NCBI GenBank assembly: GCA_000165345.1
Contig: CM000429.1
Span: 672,001 to 736,000, forward strand
Reading direction: 5' to 3'
DNA: 64,000 nucleotides
Below, piece after piece: positions 3,260-13,158 of the stretch. The position numbers and the translations under genes are program-made. The notes under the pieces were generated by a model, which made no database searches, was not told the DNA's origin, and saw nothing but the letters and a program-made list of their open reading frames with translations. How positions within the stretch are numbered: position 1 is the first letter of the stretch; every line of letters starts with the position of its first letter.

Positions 3260-3330
3260 TGCACTAACGGGGAATCGAACCCCGGTCGAAACGATGGCAA
3301 CGTTTCATCATACCACTAGACCATTAGTGC
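3260..3330 (-). tRNA. tRNA-Gly, anticodon GCC.
   Basis: The minus-strand sequence is GCACTAATGGTCTAGTGGTATGATGAAACGTTGCCATCGTTTCGACCGGGGTTCGATTCCCCGTTAGTGCA. It has a 7-bp acceptor stem (GCACTAA/TTAGTGC) and an anticodon stem AAACG/CGTTT with loop TTGCCAT, giving anticodon GCC. The B-box is GGTTCGATTCC. It is followed by a TTTTT Pol III terminator. Confidence 0.8.
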
Positions 3331-8039: not shown

Positions 8040-8410
8040 TTTTTCTTATAAATTAATTTAATTACACATTATTGTGAGGTATTTTTATGTGGCGCAATTT
8101 TGCCCAACACCGTTACTAAAAACTGTCAAACACGTAATGCATGCAGTGACGGTATTAAAAAAAAAATTCATGAGGACAATAATAATAAAAAATTACTCAC
8201 AAAAATTTTGATTAATATAAGAATAATTTTTTTTAATAAAAAAATTAATTACTTCATTTAAAAAAAATTATTTTGAATTTTTATCTGGAAAAAAAATATT
8301 TACATATAATTAATGAACAATAACTAAATAAATATAAATTTATGACAGAAATCTCAAATAATTATTTCAAGCAATAATTAATTCAATTTTGATTTTACAA
8401 GTCGAAAAAA

Positions 8411-8424
8411 TTGCATGCATGCAA
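8411..8424. promoter_or_regulatory. Palindromic TTGCATGCATGCAA box in the bidirectional promoter between divergent genes 5502..8039(-) and 8648..10900(+). It matches the apicomplexan AP2-type GCATGC motif. A second TGCATGCA box is at 8138-8145.
   Basis: The palindrome and its position between divergent ATGs are read from the sequence. GCATGCA is a known over-represented upstream motif in Cryptosporidium and other apicomplexans. Confidence 0.6.
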
Positions 8425-8647: not shown

Positions 8648-10376
8648 ATGGACCTCCATCCTCATATTAGAGCATTGGATGTAGTAGAGACATTTTGGGA
8701 AACATTCAACGAGCTTGGAAATGTCATAATTTTAAATCCAATAATTGTTAAGTCTTCTTTCCCTATAAGTGTTGATATGGTTAGAGATGCAACACAAAAA
8801 ATGATACAAAGGCATCAATCATTGAGAGTACGAATAATTTCAAAGATGACAAATAGTGAAGGAAAGAAGGCTTTAAAGAGATATTTTGTAGACCTTTGTG
8901 ACAGTGCAGAGGTAGTAATTAGAGAAGAATTTCTATCAACGCAAGAAAATCAAAATTTAGAATTTGAAAATGAACCAGTTTGGGAAAGTATGCTGGTCAA
9001 AGAGCAGAATGAATTTTTCGATAATGAAAATTCTCCATTATGGAGAATTAGAATGATGAGACTCGGAAAGTGCGGAAATACATACAGAACATGTTTTATT
9101 GGGAGCTTTCATCATGCAATAATGGACGGTCTAAGTCGTCAGTATTTCTGGACAGAATTATTAGGTTTATGCGCACTTTCTAATGAATTTCCAGATATAG
9201 CTATTCCAAAAAATAGGCCCACAGCCCTTCCAAAGAGTGTTTGCAAGTACTTTCCTTCTTCATTGAAGGTAAGGCTACTTAAACCATTTTACTCTTGGAG
9301 GGCAACAGCAGCACATGGAGTTTGTTTATATAGAAAGTTGGTGGCACCATTTGAAAATCCGTGTAGTCTTGAAATTTCACGAGACTTATATGCCGATTTT
9401 AAAAAGTCTCCTAGGACAAGCATTTTACCAATAAAAATTTCAAAGGAACTATTAAAGAAATTAATGACAAAATGTAAGGAAAGAAAGATTCAGTTAAATG
9501 GCGCAATAGAGGCAGTTTCAGCTTTAGGACTAATGGGGTTAATATACGAATTGAGAGAAAATAGAATGAATAGAAACTCTGGAGATATTTCCGAGTTGAA
9601 GGATGATGACAAATCACCGGAAAATCAACGCAATAGAGAACTATCGACTACATTAAATTTAAATTGCATGAATAATTGTGCTCCTTTCAATATTAGAGGA
9701 AGTGATTGCTTCATTCAAGGAGCTGAGGGCAATACAATAATTCCAATTAGAACAATGGTTGCAATTAACTGCAGAAGATGGGTAACAAAAGATAACCCTT
9801 CAGTACGCCCAGAAACAAGCAAAGATGTTGAAGCAGATTTAATGAACGTGTTAGAAGTAATGCAGAATAATAATAACAGTGGTACAACAACCACAACTAC
9901 TTTGACAGACAAAAATGATGAGATTGCTATTAAAAATGACTCAACTGAATGCTCAAATTTAAATTCCGGGGATGAAAATATATCTTCATTAGAAAATACT
10001 GAATTTAGTGAAGCTTATGCAAATAGATCAAGAAGCTATAAAAGCCATTCTAGGGAATTCTTTAATAATCTGAATAAAATAAATATATCATTAACAAAGC
10101 TGAATTCACAAAATGGAGAGAAGATTGGCCCATCGTGGCTTAAAAAAGCAGTTTCTAAAGTAATGAGCCCCAAAAATAAAAAATCTAAACAGATTAAAAC
10201 AGTTGGTTTAGGTTCCTATGCAGTGCTTATGGGATTGGACATGAAAGTTGAGAAGGACTGCATGTCAGATATTGATAAGATGTGGGAATTAGCAAACAAT
10301 ACAAACAAGAAAATACATTCAATAGTGGATTCAAAAGACCCATCAGCTGTAACATTTGAGTGGCATGTAATAAGTG
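8648..10376 (+). CDS. WS/DGAT-family acyltransferase (wax ester synthase / diacylglycerol acyltransferase-like, HHxxxDG motif), exon 1.
   Basis: MDLHPH... and ...PLWRIRMMRLGKCGNTYRTCFIGSFHHAIMDGLS parallel bacterial WS/DGAT AtfA (MRPLHP...[31 protein letters not shown]). The HHAIMDG catalytic motif is present. The donor G|GTAAGT is at 10377. Confidence 0.65.
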
Positions 10377-10433
10377 GTAAGTTGCTTCATTAATTTAATG
10401 TATTTATTATGAATGAATATTAATTTTTATTAG

Positions 10434-10660
10434 GTTTTATACACGATTTAGCAAATTCTCCCACAAGGTCTGATAAAAATAGATTATTAATGCAGCTTGG
10501 TGACCCAACAATCAGACCTTCATCGTTTCTAGTTAGTAATGGAGGGTTATGGGATTCAAGCCCATTACAAGAACTAATTAAAAGGATTAATTCAATCACA
10601 ACTGAGCAGGAAGTAATGGTGGAGGTAGAGTCATCATACAGCTGTGTTGCACAGCATAAC
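10434..10660 (+). CDS. WS/DGAT-like acyltransferase, exon 2.
   Basis: Intron 1 is 10377..10433 (GTAAGT...TTTTTATTAG). The frame is maintained (G|GT then FIHDLANSPTRSDKNRLLMQLGDPTIRPSS...AQHN). The donor AAC|GTAAGT is at 10661. Confidence 0.6.
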
Positions 10661-10747
10661 GTAAGTTTAATCAAAAGAAATTTGGTAAAAAGATAACTAG
10701 AAATTCACTTTATTTGATTTTTCTATTCGAAATATTAAAATTTATAG

Positions 10748-10900
10748 GCTGGTTTAAATATGTTTGCACATAATATTGTAACTGTTAATGGAGAACTATG
10801 TTGGAGTTTACAGTATCATAGTAATATTACAAGCAAAGAGGTAGCTCAAGCGTACTCAAACCATATTCAGAAGTATATAAATTTACTTGCAGAATCATAG
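10748..10900 (+). CDS. WS/DGAT-like acyltransferase, exon 3 (C-terminus).
   Basis: Intron 2 is 10661..10747 (GTAAGT...AATTTATAG). The exon encodes AGLNMFAHNIVTVNGELCWSLQYHSNITSKEVAQAYSNHIQKYINLLAES, 50 stop-free codons in phase, ending at TAG 10898-10900. Confidence 0.55.
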   Translation, partial: AGLNMFAHNIVTVNGELCWSLQYHSNITSKEVAQAYSNHIQKYINLLAES

Positions 10901-10985
10901 AAATTAAATGAAAGTTAATGAGAATTAAACTGAGAAGAAGCCAAGAAATTAGTAAGTTGCAAGTTAAAATCAAAAAATTGGATTT

Positions 10986-10997
10986 GGCGCCGGCGCC
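10986..10997. promoter_or_regulatory. Tandem E2F-like GGCGCCGGCGCC (TTTGGCGCCGGCGCCAGC), about 85 bp upstream of the Sas10/Utp3 ATG.
   Basis: GGCGCC is a known over-represented E2F/DP-like element in Cryptosporidium promoters. Two adjacent copies are present here. Confidence 0.55.
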
Positions 10998-11079
10998 AGC
11001 TCATTTGGAGGTCAAATTAAATGGCAATTTTTGACATAAGAGTACGAGAGGAATTATTTTTTTTTAAATAAAAAAAAAT

Positions 11080-13158
11080 ATGGCAGTGCAAGTAAGAAAT
11101 AAAAAGAAGGACAAGACCTTGTGGATTTCTGCGGAGGAAGAAGTAGATGATAGTACTAGCAATGATGAGTTGGAGGTAATGAATATCGATGATGACTATG
11201 ATTCTTCAGATGATAGTGAAGGAGAAGACCAATATGAAGAAGAAGGTGAAGAGGATGATAGTGATGAGGATGAAGATGAATCAAATACTAAGGACTGGGG
11301 GAACAAAAAACAGGATTTCTATGACGGAGGTTCTTCAAGTACAGATAGTGAGGGAGAGAACTGGTCTGATGTAGAAATGCAAGATGAGGAGGCACGAGGA
11401 ATTCAGGCAAGTAGAATGATGAGGTTGAGTAAGGAGGATTTTGGGATGGATGATATTATCGATCAGAGTAAATTGGAGGAGGATGATGAATCGGCAGAGA
11501 ATGAGGCAGCCTCATTTGGATTATCTATTAATGATGCAGAAACACTATTGGAAAGTTTAAGTAATTTATCGAATACGAAGCAGGAAAAAGAGTCGGATGT
11601 TTTAGCAGCATTGGGTAATGACGGATTGGATGGAATAGAGGGTTTGGATTCAGAACTAGCTCCAATATTAACAAGTATAAAGGAAAAAGTTACAGAAGTA
11701 AAAGAGAGAATGCAGGTATTATTAAATTTGGTAAAAACAAAGGAAGGTTCAGGCTTGGTGACAGAAAAAGGGATGGAGTACTTAGACTCGAAGAATACTT
11801 TGCTCTTGATGTATATTGGTTATTTATGTTATTATATGATGTTAAAGACTTCTCCTGATATTAACATTAAGGAGCATCCAATTTTGTTGAGACTGGTTAC
11901 TTTACGAACAATGATGGAAAAATTGAAGCCAATAGATGTCAAACTTCAACCGCAAATAGATAGAATTTTGGAGTTAGCAGAGAAATCATCTCAAGTGGAT
12001 AACTTCTTATCATCAGCTCCAAGGCCAGACAGATTCGTATTTGAAGATGAAGATAATGATAATAGTGACATTGAAGAAAATGAGATTTCTAAACATGATC
12101 TCGGGGATGAGTTTGATGAGTCTACAAATATCGATTCAGATGTAGAATTAACTGAAGAAGATTCGGATGGTGGAAAAGGCGTTTATAAAGCTCCAAAGAA
12201 TTTACCAGTTGAGTTCAACGATAAAAAGTTGAGTAAGACTGAGAAGATGATGAAGGAGTTAGAAAGAGAAAGACAGAGGTTATTAAGAACTGATATTATT
12301 CGCCAAATGAGATCTAGTATTCATGAAGGCCCTGAGGAAGTTGGAAGGGAAGAAGCTGAACAACTACCTCAGTTGGAGCGATTACAACGACAAATAAAAG
12401 AACGAATTAATTTTGAGGAGGATAATATGATGAGGTTACCAAAGACTAAGAAGGACAAAAGAGAAGAAAAGCTTTATAAGAGGTTAATGAGCCAAGTTGA
12501 GGGAGGTGTTAATACTTTGGACGATTTAGCTCAATTTGCAGAAAGAGCTACAGATATGGTAACTGATTCGAAAAAGAACTCACTTTCAAAGTATTTAACC
12601 AATGCTTCAAGGCTCAATAGGGAGATTACAAAAAGTAATTTGGCTCAACAAAATTCTGATAAGAGCATTACAGAAAAATTGTTAAAGAGGAAAAAAGCAC
12701 AAGCCGAATTGGCTCAAAAGAGCAAATATAAACCTGAGTATGATTCTAAAAGTGCCGATTACGATGATTCTGTGGATGAGTCTTATGCTGAAGCAGAAAA
12801 GGAGCTATTTAAGAATAATTCATATTTACAAGAAGTTCTCAAGTTGAATGAAGAGAAAAAAATGCAAAAACAAAAGAGGAAGCAAGAAATTGATAGTCGA
12901 AATATGCCAAATATTGATGATTTAGTAGATTCAGGATCCAGAAGAGCATCTACTAAAGAAATGATTAAGAATAAAGGTTTGACTAGAAAGAGAAAGAAGA
13001 TAGAAGGTAATGCAAGAGTACATAACAGACTCAAGTATAAGAAGGCATTGAAGAGACTTAAGGGAACTCAGAGAAGCATGAGAGATTATGAGAGCAGTTA
13101 CTCTGGAGAATCTACTGGATTAAAGGATAATGTTAAGAGATCAACAAATCTTAGTTAA
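11080..13158 (+). CDS. Sas10/Utp3 family nucleolar protein, a U3 snoRNP / SSU processome component.
   Basis: The Sas10/Utp3/C1D-type domain is present (NTLLLMYIGYLCYYMMLKTSP...). The Sas10 C-terminal domain is present (KNKGLTRKRKKIEGNARVHNRLKYKKALKRLKGTQRS). The N-terminus is acidic. Confidence 0.75.
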   Translation: MAVQVRNKKKDKTLWISAEEEVDDSTSNDELEVMNIDDDYDSSDDSEGEDQYEEEGEEDDSDEDEDESNTKDWGNKKQDFYDGGSSSTDSEGENWSDVEMQDEEARGIQASRMMRLSKEDFGMDDIIDQSKLEEDDESAENEAASFGLSINDAETLLESLSNLSNTKQEKESDVLAALGNDGLDGIEGLDSELAPILTSIKEKVTEVKERMQVLLNLVKTKEGSGLVTEKGMEYLDSKNTLLLMYIGYLCYYMMLKTSPDINIKEHPILLRLVTLRTMMEKLKPIDVKLQPQIDRILELAEKSSQVDNFLSSAPRPDRFVFEDEDNDNSDIEENEISKHDLGDEFDESTNIDSDVELTEEDSDGGKGVYKAPKNLPVEFNDKKLSKTEKMMKELERERQRLLRTDIIRQMRSSIHEGPEEVGREEAEQLPQLERLQRQIKERINFEEDNMMRLPKTKKDKREEKLYKRLMSQVEGGVNTLDDLAQFAERATDMVTDSKKNSLSKYLTNASRLNREITKSNLAQQNSDKSITEKLLKRKKAQAELAQKSKYKPEYDSKSADYDDSVDESYAEAEKELFKNNSYLQEVLKLNEEKKMQKQKRKQEIDSRNMPNIDDLVDSGSRRASTKEMIKNKGLTRKRKKIEGNARVHNRLKYKKALKRLKGTQRSMRDYESSYSGESTGLKDNVKRSTNLS

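What the first reader, a model, noticed from the sequence alone, without database searches (positions are those of the whole stretch)
8648..10900. Three-exon gene encoding a WS/DGAT-type HHxxxDG acyltransferase
Exon 1 shows the bacterial/plant WS/DGAT N-terminal signature (MxxLHP..., PLW, and the catalytic HHAIMDG box, compare Acinetobacter AtfA HHAMVDG). Two short introns, 10377..10433 and 10661..10747, both GTAAGT...YAG, extend the frame by a further 125 codons to a TAG at 10900.

WS/DGAT enzymes make wax esters or triacylglycerol and are patchily distributed in eukaryotes. In a reduced parasite genome this is a candidate neutral-lipid or acyl-ester synthesis step, possibly acquired by horizontal transfer. 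The introns show it is a resident eukaryotic gene, not contamination.
Basis: partly seen in the sequence, partly recalled or inferred. Interest (0 to 1): 0.6.

Follow-up and report, generated by a model that had tools for sequence, protein, structure and literature searches.

The report
Female-specific stand-alone condensation-domain enzyme gene
The three-exon gene is real and is the already annotated Cryptosporidium parvum gene cgd1_3120, but it encodes a stand-alone "condensation-domain" enzyme rather than a WS/DGAT wax-ester synthase, and it is switched on only in female gametes together with the parasite's giant fatty-acid and polyketide synthases.

Summary
The sequence observation holds. 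Exons 8648-10376, 10434-10660 and 10748-10900, with two GTAAGT...TAG introns, give a 702-aa protein. [quoted passage not shown] Both intron positions are conserved in C. muris and C. ryanae.

The protein belongs to an uncharacterised clade found in apicomplexans and chromerids: Cryptosporidium, Toxoplasma TGME49_248440, Eimeria, Cyclospora, Cystoisospora, Rhytidocystis, Cardiosporidium and Chromera. No haemosporidian or piroplasm member was found, which parallels the published distribution of type I FAS/PKS.

Published RNA-seq shows the gene silent in asexual stages and high in females (log2FC 7.9), like CpFAS1 and CpPKS1.

My best reading is inferred, not shown. It is a cytosolic thioester-dependent O-acyltransferase that esterifies FAS/PKS-derived very-long-chain alcohols or hydroxy-acyl chains for oocyst lipids. 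So it may act like a wax synthase without being WS/DGAT. The gene is known; the functional link is new but untested.

The parts
8648..10376 (+). Exon 1 of cgd1_3120 (aa 1-576 plus the first base of codon 577). It carries the N-lobe of the condensation-type fold, the start of the C-lobe and a low-complexity insert.
   Evidence: ORF list. Splice model. 100% identity to QOY43312.1. PF00668 matches aa 31-175.
8669..8698 (+). RALDVVETFW: N-terminal R-x-L-(D/G)-x-x-E motif, resembling NRPS C-domain motif C1.
   Evidence: R8, L10, D11 and E14 are invariant in Cryptosporidium. R is present in 82 of 94 and E in 83 of 94 relatives. It aligns to AzeD RPLSAVE. The C1 comparison is from my own knowledge of C-domain motifs.
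8807..8836 (+). QRHQSLRVRI: resembles NRPS C-domain motif C2 (RHxxLR).
   Evidence: Invariant in Cryptosporidium. The family consensus is RHPxLRxRI. It aligns to AzeD RHPLLRARI.
9032..9049 (+).
   Evidence: P130, L131, W132 and R133 are invariant in the genus. W is present in 89 of 94 relatives.
9110..9130 (+). HHAIMDG: the HHxxxDG catalytic motif (aa 155-161).
   Evidence: Coordinates. Invariant in Cryptosporidium. D160 and G161 are invariant and H155/H156 are at least 90% conserved in the apicomplexan/chromerid clade.
9758..9781 (+). VAINCRRW: strand with the conserved N...R, resembling NRPS motif C5.
   Evidence: R376 is present in 87 of 94 relatives and N374 in 54 of 94. R376, R377 and W378 are invariant in the clade.
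9890..10186 (+). Lineage-specific, predicted disordered insert (aa 415-513) inside the C-lobe. It is much longer in the coccidian orthologues.
   Evidence: pLDDT is below 50 for 415-498 and 500-513. It is poorly conserved in the genus alignment. Coccidian orthologues are 1291-1641 aa long.
10377..10433 (+). Intron 1 (57 nt, GTAAGT...TAG, phase 1). It contains the in-frame TAA at 10391-10393 that ended the old 581-aa model.
   Evidence: The same position is used in C. muris and C. ryanae, with diverged intron sequence.
10434..10660 (+). Exon 2 (aa 577-652). It includes RPSSFLVSNGGLW (the SN-G motif, 10526-10552).
   Evidence: tblastn to C. muris at 2e-37 and C. ryanae at 9e-39. N612 is present in 84 of 94 and G614 in 85 of 94 relatives.
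10661..10747 (+). Intron 2 (87 nt, GTAAGT...TAG, phase 0).
   Evidence: The position is conserved in C. muris and C. ryanae.
10748..10900 (+). Exon 3 (aa 653-702 plus TAG). It includes the clade signature MFAHNIVTVNGELCWSLQYHSN (10760-10825).
   Evidence: tblastn at 1e-25 and 2e-23.
8412..8423 (.). Two overlapping TGCATGCA motifs (ApiAP2 AP2_1-like) about 230 bp upstream of the ATG, with a third at 8138-8145. This is a candidate promoter element, and assigning it to this gene is speculative.
   Evidence: 14 copies in the window against 0.43 expected. The motif family is described in PMC3734150.

Best explanation
This is cgd1_3120, a spliced three-exon C. parvum gene.

**The protein**
- It is 702 aa long, has no recognised domain other than the C-type domain, and shows no evident N-terminal hydrophobic segment of the kind its ~500-aa animal relatives carry. 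A cytosolic location is inferred, not tested.
- It is a stand-alone member of the condensation (C) domain family, the HHxxxDG CoA-dependent acyltransferase superfamily.
- It has no fused adenylation or carrier domain.
- It belongs to an orthologous clade restricted to apicomplexans and chromerids. A ~100-residue disordered insert sits in the C-lobe.

**Proposed mechanism (inferred, not shown)**
- In female gametes, His156 of the HHxxxDG motif activates a hydroxyl acceptor.
- The most likely acceptor is a very-long-chain fatty or polyketide alcohol or hydroxy-acyl chain released by the reductase-terminated megasynthases CpFAS1 and CpPKS1.
- The acceptor attacks an acyl thioester donor, either acyl-CoA or an acyl-ACP of the megasynthases, as PapA5 does with Mas.
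- The products would be wax-type or other complex esters destined for oocyst wall or storage lipid.

**What is shown and what is inferred**
- Shown: gene structure, family and fold, clade distribution, female-specific co-expression.
- Inferred: the acyl-transfer chemistry, the substrates and the link to the oocyst wall.
For: **Gene model**
-.

**Family**
- PF00668 scores 37.1 bits against a cutoff of 30.6, and no other acyltransferase family is reported.
- Relatives match Condensation, PapA_C and AATase.

**Fold**
- The AF2 model has pLDDT 80.1 and pTM 0.81.
- The Foldseek top 50 are all C, E or Cy domains, PapA5 or Tri3.

**Catalytic motif**
- HHxxxDG is intact and conserved across the clade.

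**Distribution**
- All 12 hits at E<=1e-30 in an exhaustive search of 1.84 billion representatives come from Cryptosporidium, Rhytidocystis, Chromera, Cystoisospora, Eimeria, Cyclospora, Toxoplasma and Cardiosporidium, plus two unnamed sequences (P0025, P0028) from public read-set assemblies. None is from a haemosporidian or piroplasm.
- Coccidia, Cryptosporidium and nephromycids retain type I FAS/PKS, while haematozoans lack it (PMC6777426; PMC3760245). FASI is reported in all the deep-branching apicomplexans surveyed in PMC6733595.

**Expression (Tandel 2019, PMC6877471 supplement 4, log2 CPM)**

| Gene | Asexual | Female in vitro | Female in vivo | log2FC female vs asexual |
|---|---|---|---|---|
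| cgd1_3120 | 0.96 (floor) | 8.82 | 9.24 | 7.86 |
| CpFAS1 (cgd3_2180) | 4.58 | 11.28 | 11.17 | 6.70 |
| CpPKS1 (cgd4_2900) | 5.54 | 9.46 | 5.97 | 3.92 |

**Candidate acceptor**
- CpFAS1 and CpPKS1 end in reductase domains. Their products are thought to be very-long-chain alcohols (PMC2995488; PMC6568194).
Against: - There is no biochemical or genetic data on this protein or any clade member.
- The closest solved structure, AzeD, is a dehydratase acting on a free substrate, not an acyltransferase.
- Oocyst-wall lipids reported so far are mainly triglycerides with polyhydroxy or long acyl chains, not wax esters (PMC3760245).
- There is no genomic clustering with FAS/PKS. The neighbours are housekeeping genes.
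- Co-expression in females is shared by hundreds of genes.
- The Pfam match covers only the N-lobe (aa 31-175).
- The profile built from the clade alone hits solved structures only weakly (McyA 2.7e-4, AzeD 0.038). The close link to AzeD therefore rests on the fold and on intermediate sequences.
- Absence from haematozoans is inferred from a hit list, not from a direct genome search.
Confidence: 0.5

Rival explanations
1. One reading: a WS/DGAT-family wax ester synthase / diacylglycerol acyltransferase (PF03007 + PF06974) that makes wax esters or triacylglycerol from acyl-CoA.
For: - It has an HHxxxDG motif and a PLW element.
- The family profile hits 6chj at 5.9e-9 and 7nxg at 1.5e-7.
- 6 of 94 relatives touch WS_DGAT_cat.
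- Likely alcohol products of CpFAS1 and CpPKS1 would suit a wax synthase.
Against: - No PF03007 or PF06974 hit at E<=10, while PF00668 passes its cutoff.
- AzeD, NRPS C domains and PapA5 all score better by profile.
- The N-terminal 'LHP' is not conserved within the genus.
Confidence: 0.05
2. An AzeD-like stand-alone C protein doing non-acyl-transfer chemistry, for example dehydration or another tailoring step on a free polyketide or fatty-alcohol intermediate.
For: - AzeD is the best profile hit of the wider family, at 2.3e-45 over its full length.
- hhalign scores the apicomplexan/chromerid clade against the AzeD group at 299, and against NRPS C domains at 252.
- AzeD is a dehydratase and founds a 'C_standalone' clade whose other members have unknown function.
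Against: - AzeD has PHxxxDG, and its mechanism is tied to that Pro. This protein keeps the canonical HH.
- The direct sequence link from the clade to AzeD is weak, at E 0.038.
- The structural model was built from an alignment that includes AzeD-like sequences. That may pull it towards that geometry.
Confidence: 0.15
3. An amide-forming (N-acyl) condensation enzyme acting on a free amine, VibH-like or acting on a lipid amine or amino acid, rather than an ester-forming one.
For: - The best Pfam family is the NRPS condensation domain.
- The best PDB sequence hits of the clade-only profile are the microcystin synthetase C domains McyA (8jbr) and McyB (8hlk).
Against: - No NRPS adenylation or PCP partner is fused to the protein.
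- From my own knowledge, not tested here, none is known in C. parvum. The only carrier domains known there are the ACPs of CpFAS1 and CpPKS1.
- The co-expressed megasynthases are thought to give alcohols.
Confidence: 0.1
4. A non-catalytic partner or regulator of lipid-elongating enzymes, like plant CER2-type proteins of the same fold that bind a ketoacyl-CoA synthase.
Against: - HHxxxDG and the other core motifs are strictly conserved from Cryptosporidium to Chromera, which points to catalysis.
- The CER2-type hits rank well below the C-domain hits.
Confidence: 0.05

Closest known systems
AzeD of Pseudomonas aeruginosa (PDB 8s6l), founding member of the 'C_standalone' subgroup of condensation-domain proteins
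   Same: - It is a discrete ~450-residue two-lobe C-type fold with no fused NRPS domains.
- It shares RxLxxxE, RHPxLRxRI, GPL(W/I)R, SN-G and the C-terminal NG-L-W--Y elements.
   Different: - AzeD is bacterial, sits in an NRPS gene cluster, has PHxxxDG and dehydrates a free alkaloid intermediate.
- The Cryptosporidium protein keeps HHxxxDG and carries lineage-specific inserts.
- It is eukaryotic and spliced, and is not clustered with biosynthetic genes.
- The direct sequence link is weak.
PapA5 of Mycobacterium tuberculosis (PDB 1q9j; Pfam PF00668 + PF16911)
   Same: - It works with a type I polyketide/fatty-acid megasynthase to esterify long-chain diols into waxy wall lipid. This is the functional model proposed here.
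- Orthologues give weak PapA_C matches.
   Different: - There is no PapA_C hit for the C. parvum protein itself.
- The profile E-value is only 1.6e-11, against 2.3e-45 for AzeD.
- PapA5 lies within the PDIM biosynthetic gene cluster (own knowledge); this gene has no PKS neighbour.
- Use of an ACP-bound donor is untested.
WS/DGAT (Acinetobacter AtfA; Marinobacter enzyme, PDB 6chj; Pfam PF03007 + PF06974)
   Same: It belongs to the same superfamily fold, has the HHxxxDG motif and may share the product class of long-chain esters.
   Different: - Neither Pfam model matches.
- The profile E-value is 5.9e-9.
NRPS-embedded condensation domains (Pfam PF00668)
   Same: The protein passes the Pfam gathering threshold. 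Motifs resembling C1, C2, C3 and C5 are present. Most of the top structural hits are C, E or Cy domains.
   Different: - It has no adenylation or carrier-protein context.
- hhalign scores the NRPS segments lower than the stand-alone groups, at 252 against 299 and 632.
Fungal acyl-CoA O-acyltransferases of the same fold (Tri3, PDB 3fp0; MEL acyltransferase, PDB 8jos; Pfam AATase PF07247)
   Same: - 57 of 94 relatives and two clade members (Chromera P0023 and the unnamed P0025) match AATase.
   Different: There is no AATase hit for the C. parvum protein, and sequence identity is low (about 10%).

Membership tests
WS/DGAT (wax ester synthase / diacylglycerol acyltransferase) | Significant match to the catalytic-domain model PF03007 (WS_DGAT_cat) | tested here: not met
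   hmmscan against Pfam at E<=10 returns only PF00668 and a chance DUF. Only 6 of 94 relatives match it.
WS/DGAT (wax ester synthase / diacylglycerol acyltransferase) | Match to the C-terminal domain model PF06974 (WS_DGAT_C) | tested here: not met
   No hit for the full protein or for the isolated C-terminal 186 aa at E<=1.
WS/DGAT (wax ester synthase / diacylglycerol acyltransferase) | HHxxxDG active-site motif | tested here: met
   HHAIMDG at aa 155-161. The motif is shared by the whole superfamily, so it does not discriminate.
WS/DGAT (wax ester synthase / diacylglycerol acyltransferase) | A WS/DGAT structure is the nearest solved fold | tested here: not met
   [not shown]
WS/DGAT (wax ester synthase / diacylglycerol acyltransferase) | Wax ester or triacylglycerol synthase activity | not testable with these tools
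   This needs an enzyme assay.
Condensation-domain family (Pfam PF00668) | Pfam match above the gathering score | tested here: met
   37.1 bits against a cutoff of 30.6, E 2e-9, covering aa 31-175 only. 83 of 94 relatives match, with a best E of 8e-59.
Condensation-domain family (Pfam PF00668) | Two-lobe fold, each lobe like chloramphenicol acetyltransferase, V-shaped, with HHxxxDG | tested here: met
   [not shown]
Condensation-domain family (Pfam PF00668) | Core motifs C1, C2, C3 and C5 | tested here: met
   RALDVVETFW, RHQSLRVRI, FHHAIMDGLS and VAINCRR are conserved in the family alignment. The motif definitions come from my own knowledge.
Condensation-domain family (Pfam PF00668) | Acts on a carrier-protein-bound thioester | not testable with these tools
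   No fused carrier domain is present. A partner cannot be inferred from sequence.
C_standalone subgroup (AzeD-like) | A discrete protein without other NRPS/PKS domains | tested here: met
   There is a single C-type domain and nothing else in Pfam.
C_standalone subgroup (AzeD-like) | Closer to AzeD than to other C-domain classes | tested here: inconclusive
   - Against: the clade-only profile hits AzeD at only 0.038, and phmmer with AzeD does not reach the clade directly.
- The published reference tree was not reproduced.
C_standalone subgroup (AzeD-like) | Dehydratase chemistry with a P-H-xxx-DG variant motif | tested here: not met
   The motif here is HHAIMDG. According to the preprint, only about one third of the subgroup varies the first His. 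The activity itself is not testable here.
PapA5-type polyketide-associated acyltransferases (PF00668 + PF16911) | Match to the PapA_C model PF16911 | tested here: inconclusive
   There is no hit for the C. parvum protein. Orthologues give sub-threshold hits, for example Chromera at 22.6 bits against a cutoff of 30. 62 of 94 relatives match at E<=0.01.
PapA5-type polyketide-associated acyltransferases (PF00668 + PF16911) | Functional association with a type I PKS/FAS | tested here: inconclusive
   - Female-specific co-expression with CpFAS1 and CpPKS1.
- A matching phyletic distribution.
- No gene clustering and no physical or genetic evidence.

The most novel reading that the evidence does not exclude
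The clade of stand-alone C-domain proteins in apicomplexans and chromerids (cgd1_3120, TGME49_248440 and their orthologues) could be the missing tailoring or off-loading enzyme of the FAS/PKS pathway.

It would esterify megasynthase-derived very-long-chain alcohols or hydroxy-acyl chains into the acid-fast lipids of the oocyst wall. That would make it a eukaryotic counterpart of mycobacterial PapA5. Losing it would then block oocyst wall formation and transmission.
Probability: 0.25. Interest if true: 0.7.

Novelty: new member of a known kind. Interest (0 to 1): 0.4.

Why it matters
Cryptosporidium and coccidian oocysts owe their environmental toughness partly to acid-fast lipids. Those lipids are thought to come from giant type I FAS/PKS enzymes. 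How the products are released, joined and deposited is unknown.

This female-specific acyltransferase-type enzyme is conserved in the apicomplexan and chromerid lineages sampled here, which the literature reports as retaining type I FAS/PKS. It is absent from human-type metabolism. It is a concrete candidate for the next step in that pathway, and it can be tested by knockout. It is also a possible transmission-blocking target.

On the practical side, this work does three things:
- It corrects a tempting misannotation (WS/DGAT).
- It links coccidian "hypothetical proteins" such as TGME49_248440 to a defined enzyme family.
- It flags truncated gene models in several Cryptosporidium genomes.

Tried and rejected
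- **Shallow structure prediction.** AlphaFold2 with only the ten Cryptosporidium sequences gave an unusable model (pLDDT 32.7). It was redone with 94 relatives.
- **Word-indexed protein searches.** The single protein, the 94-sequence alignment and P0034 as queries returned almost only Cryptosporidium sequences or very few hits. The distant relatives came from the exhaustive HMMER search.
- **NCBIfam.** No hit.
- **PDB sequence searches.** The single protein, the genus profile and the clade profile gave only marginal NRPS C-domain hits.
- **AlphaFold database fold search.** It was not available.
- **Literature on the gene.** Searches for the accessions, for "peptide synthase like condensation", for TGME49_248440 and for oocyst-wall fatty alcohols found nothing.
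- **Supplements of other papers.** Two Toxoplasma stage-transcriptome papers have no supplement text held. The AP2-F knockout paper's supplements do not list cgd1_3120.
- **Genomic context.** Neighbouring genes are housekeeping genes: a GCP-like protein, Sas10/Utp3, adenylate kinase, a cyclin and a Suf/HAT-repeat protein. They give no functional context.
- **Recent horizontal transfer or contamination.** Rejected because of the introns, the conserved synteny and the spread of orthologues across apicomplexans and chromerids.
- **Neighbour-joining tree.** The tree has no support values. I used it only to show that the clade is exclusive, not to infer deeper relationships.
Full report
**1. What is in the sequence**

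The window has 26.7% G+C. An ATG-initiated ORF runs from 8648 to a TAA at 10391-10393 and encodes 581 aa.

Removing 10377-10433 (57 nt) and 10661-10747 (87 nt), both GTAAGT...TAG, joins three exons into a 2109-nt CDS. That CDS encodes 702 aa and ends at TAG 10898-10900. Intron 1 is phase 1 and intron 2 is phase 0.

The product is identical, residue for residue, to the 702-aa C. parvum proteins QOY43312.1, WKS76217.1 and WRK30708.1, named "Condensation domain containing protein". The old Iowa II model XP_628128.1, "peptide synthase like condensation domain", is the 581-aa read-through into intron 1. So the window is C. parvum chromosome 1.

Tandel et al. 2019 list, in order, cgd1_3120 (condensation domain protein), cgd1_3130 (Sas10/Utp3), cgd1_3140 (adenylate kinase) and cgd1_3150 (cyclin-like). 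This matches the ORFs downstream in the window. The gene is therefore cgd1_3120.

**2. Are the introns real?**

No transcript data can be read with these tools, but the comparative evidence is strong.
- The exon 2 and exon 3 peptides are found by tblastn in C. muris (E 2e-37 and 1e-25) and in C. ryanae (9e-39 and 2e-23).
- In both species the donor follows ...ATAAGTG|GTAAGT and ...CATAA(C/T)|GTAAGT. The acceptors precede GTTT... and GCTGG.... These are the same codon positions as in C. parvum.
- The intron sequences and lengths are unrelated between the species.
- The 702-aa C. muris model aligns end to end at 60% identity.
- Gene order (GCP-like, this gene, Sas10, adenylate kinase) is conserved in C. 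muris.

This is a resident, spliced gene. Several public models miss one or both introns: C. ryanae 613 aa, C. xiaoi 615, C. hominis TU502 582, chipmunk genotype 582, C. canis with intron 1 translated, and C. felis truncated.

**3. Which family?**

*Sequence models.* Pfam reports only PF00668 Condensation (37.1 bits, cutoff 30.6, aa 31-175). Nothing is reported for PF03007 or PF06974 even at E<=10. NCBIfam reports nothing.

*Distant relatives.* An exhaustive HMMER search with the genus profile against 1.84 billion representatives gave 170 hits at E<=1e-3. Scanning 94 of the relatives against Pfam gave the following counts.

| Pfam model | Relatives matching (of 94) |
|---|---|
| Condensation | 83 |
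| PapA_C | 62 |
| AATase | 57 |
| WS_DGAT_cat | 6 |

*Structure.* With those relatives as the alignment, AlphaFold2 gave a confident model (pLDDT 80.1, pTM 0.81). It has disordered segments at 335-344 and 415-513.
- Next come the CDA starter C domain (28.0), PapA5 (26.9) and Tri3 (25.6).
- The Foldseek top 50 contains no WS/DGAT.

*Profiles against the PDB.* A profile of the 94 relatives hits AzeD at 2.3e-45 over its full length. It hits PapA5 at 1.6e-11 and WS/DGAT at 5.9e-9.

*Caveats.* A profile of the apicomplexan/chromerid clade alone reaches solved structures only weakly (McyA 2.7e-4, AzeD 0.038). AzeD finds the ~500-aa intermediate proteins by phmmer but does not reach the clade directly. 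Profile-profile scores are 632 against the ~500-aa group, 299 against the AzeD group and 252 against NRPS C domains.

*Conclusion.* The protein is a condensation-domain family member of the stand-alone kind. Its nearest characterised relatives are AzeD/C_standalone and PapA5. It is not a WS/DGAT.

The N-terminal "LHP" is not conserved even within the genus.

**4. Who else has it?**

All 12 hits at E<=1e-30 were accounted for:
- Cryptosporidium
- Rhytidocystis (two)
- Chromera velia (Cvel_19000 and Cvel_17058)
- Cystoisospora suis
- Eimeria acervulina
- Cyclospora cayetanensis
- Toxoplasma gondii TGME49_248440, with Hammondia
- Cardiosporidium cionae
- two unnamed sequences (P0025, P0028) from public read-set assemblies

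The members share the signatures RPSxF[LM][IV]SN and W(S/T)LQYH(S/T)N, which no other retrieved protein has. They form an exclusive group in a crude neighbour-joining tree.

No haemosporidian or piroplasm sequence appears. The next tier (E 1e-19 to 1e-10) is ~500-aa proteins, many with an N-terminal hydrophobic segment. The named ones come from cnidarians, hemichordates and a brachiopod.

The gene is therefore ancient in this part of the alveolate tree and not a recent transfer into a reduced parasite.

The coccidian orthologues are annotated only as hypothetical proteins. The Toxoplasma model begins at MDGLSRQ, inside the catalytic motif, so it is probably truncated at the 5' end.

**5. Biological context from the literature**

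In the sorted-cell RNA-seq of Tandel et al. 2019 (supplementary file 4, log2 CPM), cgd1_3120 sits at the floor value in all four asexual samples.

| Gene | Asexual | Female in vitro | Female in vivo | log2FC female vs asexual |
|---|---|---|---|---|
| cgd1_3120 | 0.96 | 8.82 | 9.24 | 7.86 |
| CpFAS1 (cgd3_2180) | 4.58 | 11.28 | 11.17 | 6.70 |
| CpPKS1 (cgd4_2900) | 5.54 | 9.46 | 5.97 | 3.92 |

- In the bulk series the values are about 6.6, -0.7 and 8.4. I infer these are sporozoite, 24 h and 48 h from the order of the sample sheet.
- That paper highlights FAS and PKS as female-specific wall-lipid enzymes but does not mention cgd1_3120.
- Bushkin et al. [quoted passage not shown] They noted that Plasmodium has no such synthases.
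- Nephromycids retain type I FAS, unlike haematozoans. FASI is reported in all the deep-branching apicomplexans surveyed by Janouskovec et al. (PMC6733595).
- CpFAS1 and CpPKS1 end in reductase domains. They are thought to release very-long-chain fatty or polyketide alcohols.

**6. Most likely mechanism**

*Shown:*
- an intact, conserved HHxxxDG enzyme of the C-domain fold
- a stand-alone protein with no recognised domain other than the C-type domain and no evident N-terminal hydrophobic segment of the kind its ~500-aa animal relatives carry; a cytosolic location is inferred, not tested
- expression specific to females
- a distribution that matches that of type I FAS/PKS

*Inferred:* it transfers an acyl group from a thioester (acyl-CoA, or acyl-ACP as for PapA5) onto a hydroxyl of a megasynthase-derived long-chain alcohol or hydroxy-acyl chain. 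This would build complex esters for the oocyst wall or for stores. I put this at about 0.5.

*Rivals:*
- AzeD-like non-acyl chemistry, 0.15. Its support is the top structural match. Against it, AzeD has PHxxxDG and this protein has HH.
- Amide formation on a free amine, 0.1.
- True WS/DGAT membership, 0.05.
- A non-catalytic CER2-like role, 0.05.

**7. Novelty and score**

The gene, its three-exon model and its "condensation domain" label are already public. The following are new inferences:
- the rejection of WS/DGAT
- the definition of the apicomplexan/chromerid clade, including coccidian "hypothetical proteins"
- the structural kinship to the recently described C_standalone group
- the link to the female FAS/PKS programme

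None of them is tested experimentally. I rate it a new (uncharacterised) member of a known kind, with interest 0.4.

Noticed in passing
window 8138-8145, 8412-8419, 8416-8423 (and 11 more sites): TGCATGCA, the ApiAP2 'AP2_1' motif, occurs 14 times in the window against 0.43 expected. Three copies lie in the 608-bp divergent intergenic region between the GCP-like gene and cgd1_3120.
   Followed up: partly
window 10983-10998: An E2F-like palindrome, TTTGGCGCCGGCGCCA, lies between the stop codon of cgd1_3120 and the start of the Sas10/Utp3 gene at 11080. It matches the most abundant C. parvum upstream motif family.
   Followed up: no
window 3260-3330 (-): A tRNA gene (Rfam RF00005, 61.9 bits) lies between two protein-coding ORFs.
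   Followed up: no
L002 3001-5314 (C. ryanae); also the public models of C. xiaoi, C. hominis TU502, chipmunk genotype I, C. canis and C. felis: The orthologue is mis-modelled in several public genomes: it is truncated at intron 1, or intron 1 is translated, or intron 2 is missed. Applying the three-exon model to C. ryanae gives 734 aa instead of 613.
   Followed up: yes
P0031 / P0179 (Toxoplasma gondii TGME49_248440, 1380 aa) and P0030 (Cyclospora): The coccidian orthologues are annotated only as 'hypothetical protein'. The Toxoplasma model starts at MDGLSRQ, inside the HHxxxDG motif, so its N-lobe is probably missing from the gene model. The Eimeria acervulina model is 1641 aa.
   Followed up: partly
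P0033, P0036, P0038, P0041, P0045, P0188 (Nematostella, Glandiceps, Saccoglossus, Ptychodera, Lingula): Marine invertebrates encode a family of uncharacterised ~500-aa stand-alone condensation-domain proteins, many with an N-terminal hydrophobic segment. These sequences bridge the apicomplexan/chromerid clade and bacterial AzeD.
   Followed up: partly
P0073 (1070 aa, source unknown): This is the nearest sequence outside the clade in the neighbour-joining tree. It is long, rich in inserts and has SHSMFDG in place of HHxxxDG. It may be a divergent paralogue from an unidentified alveolate.
   Followed up: no
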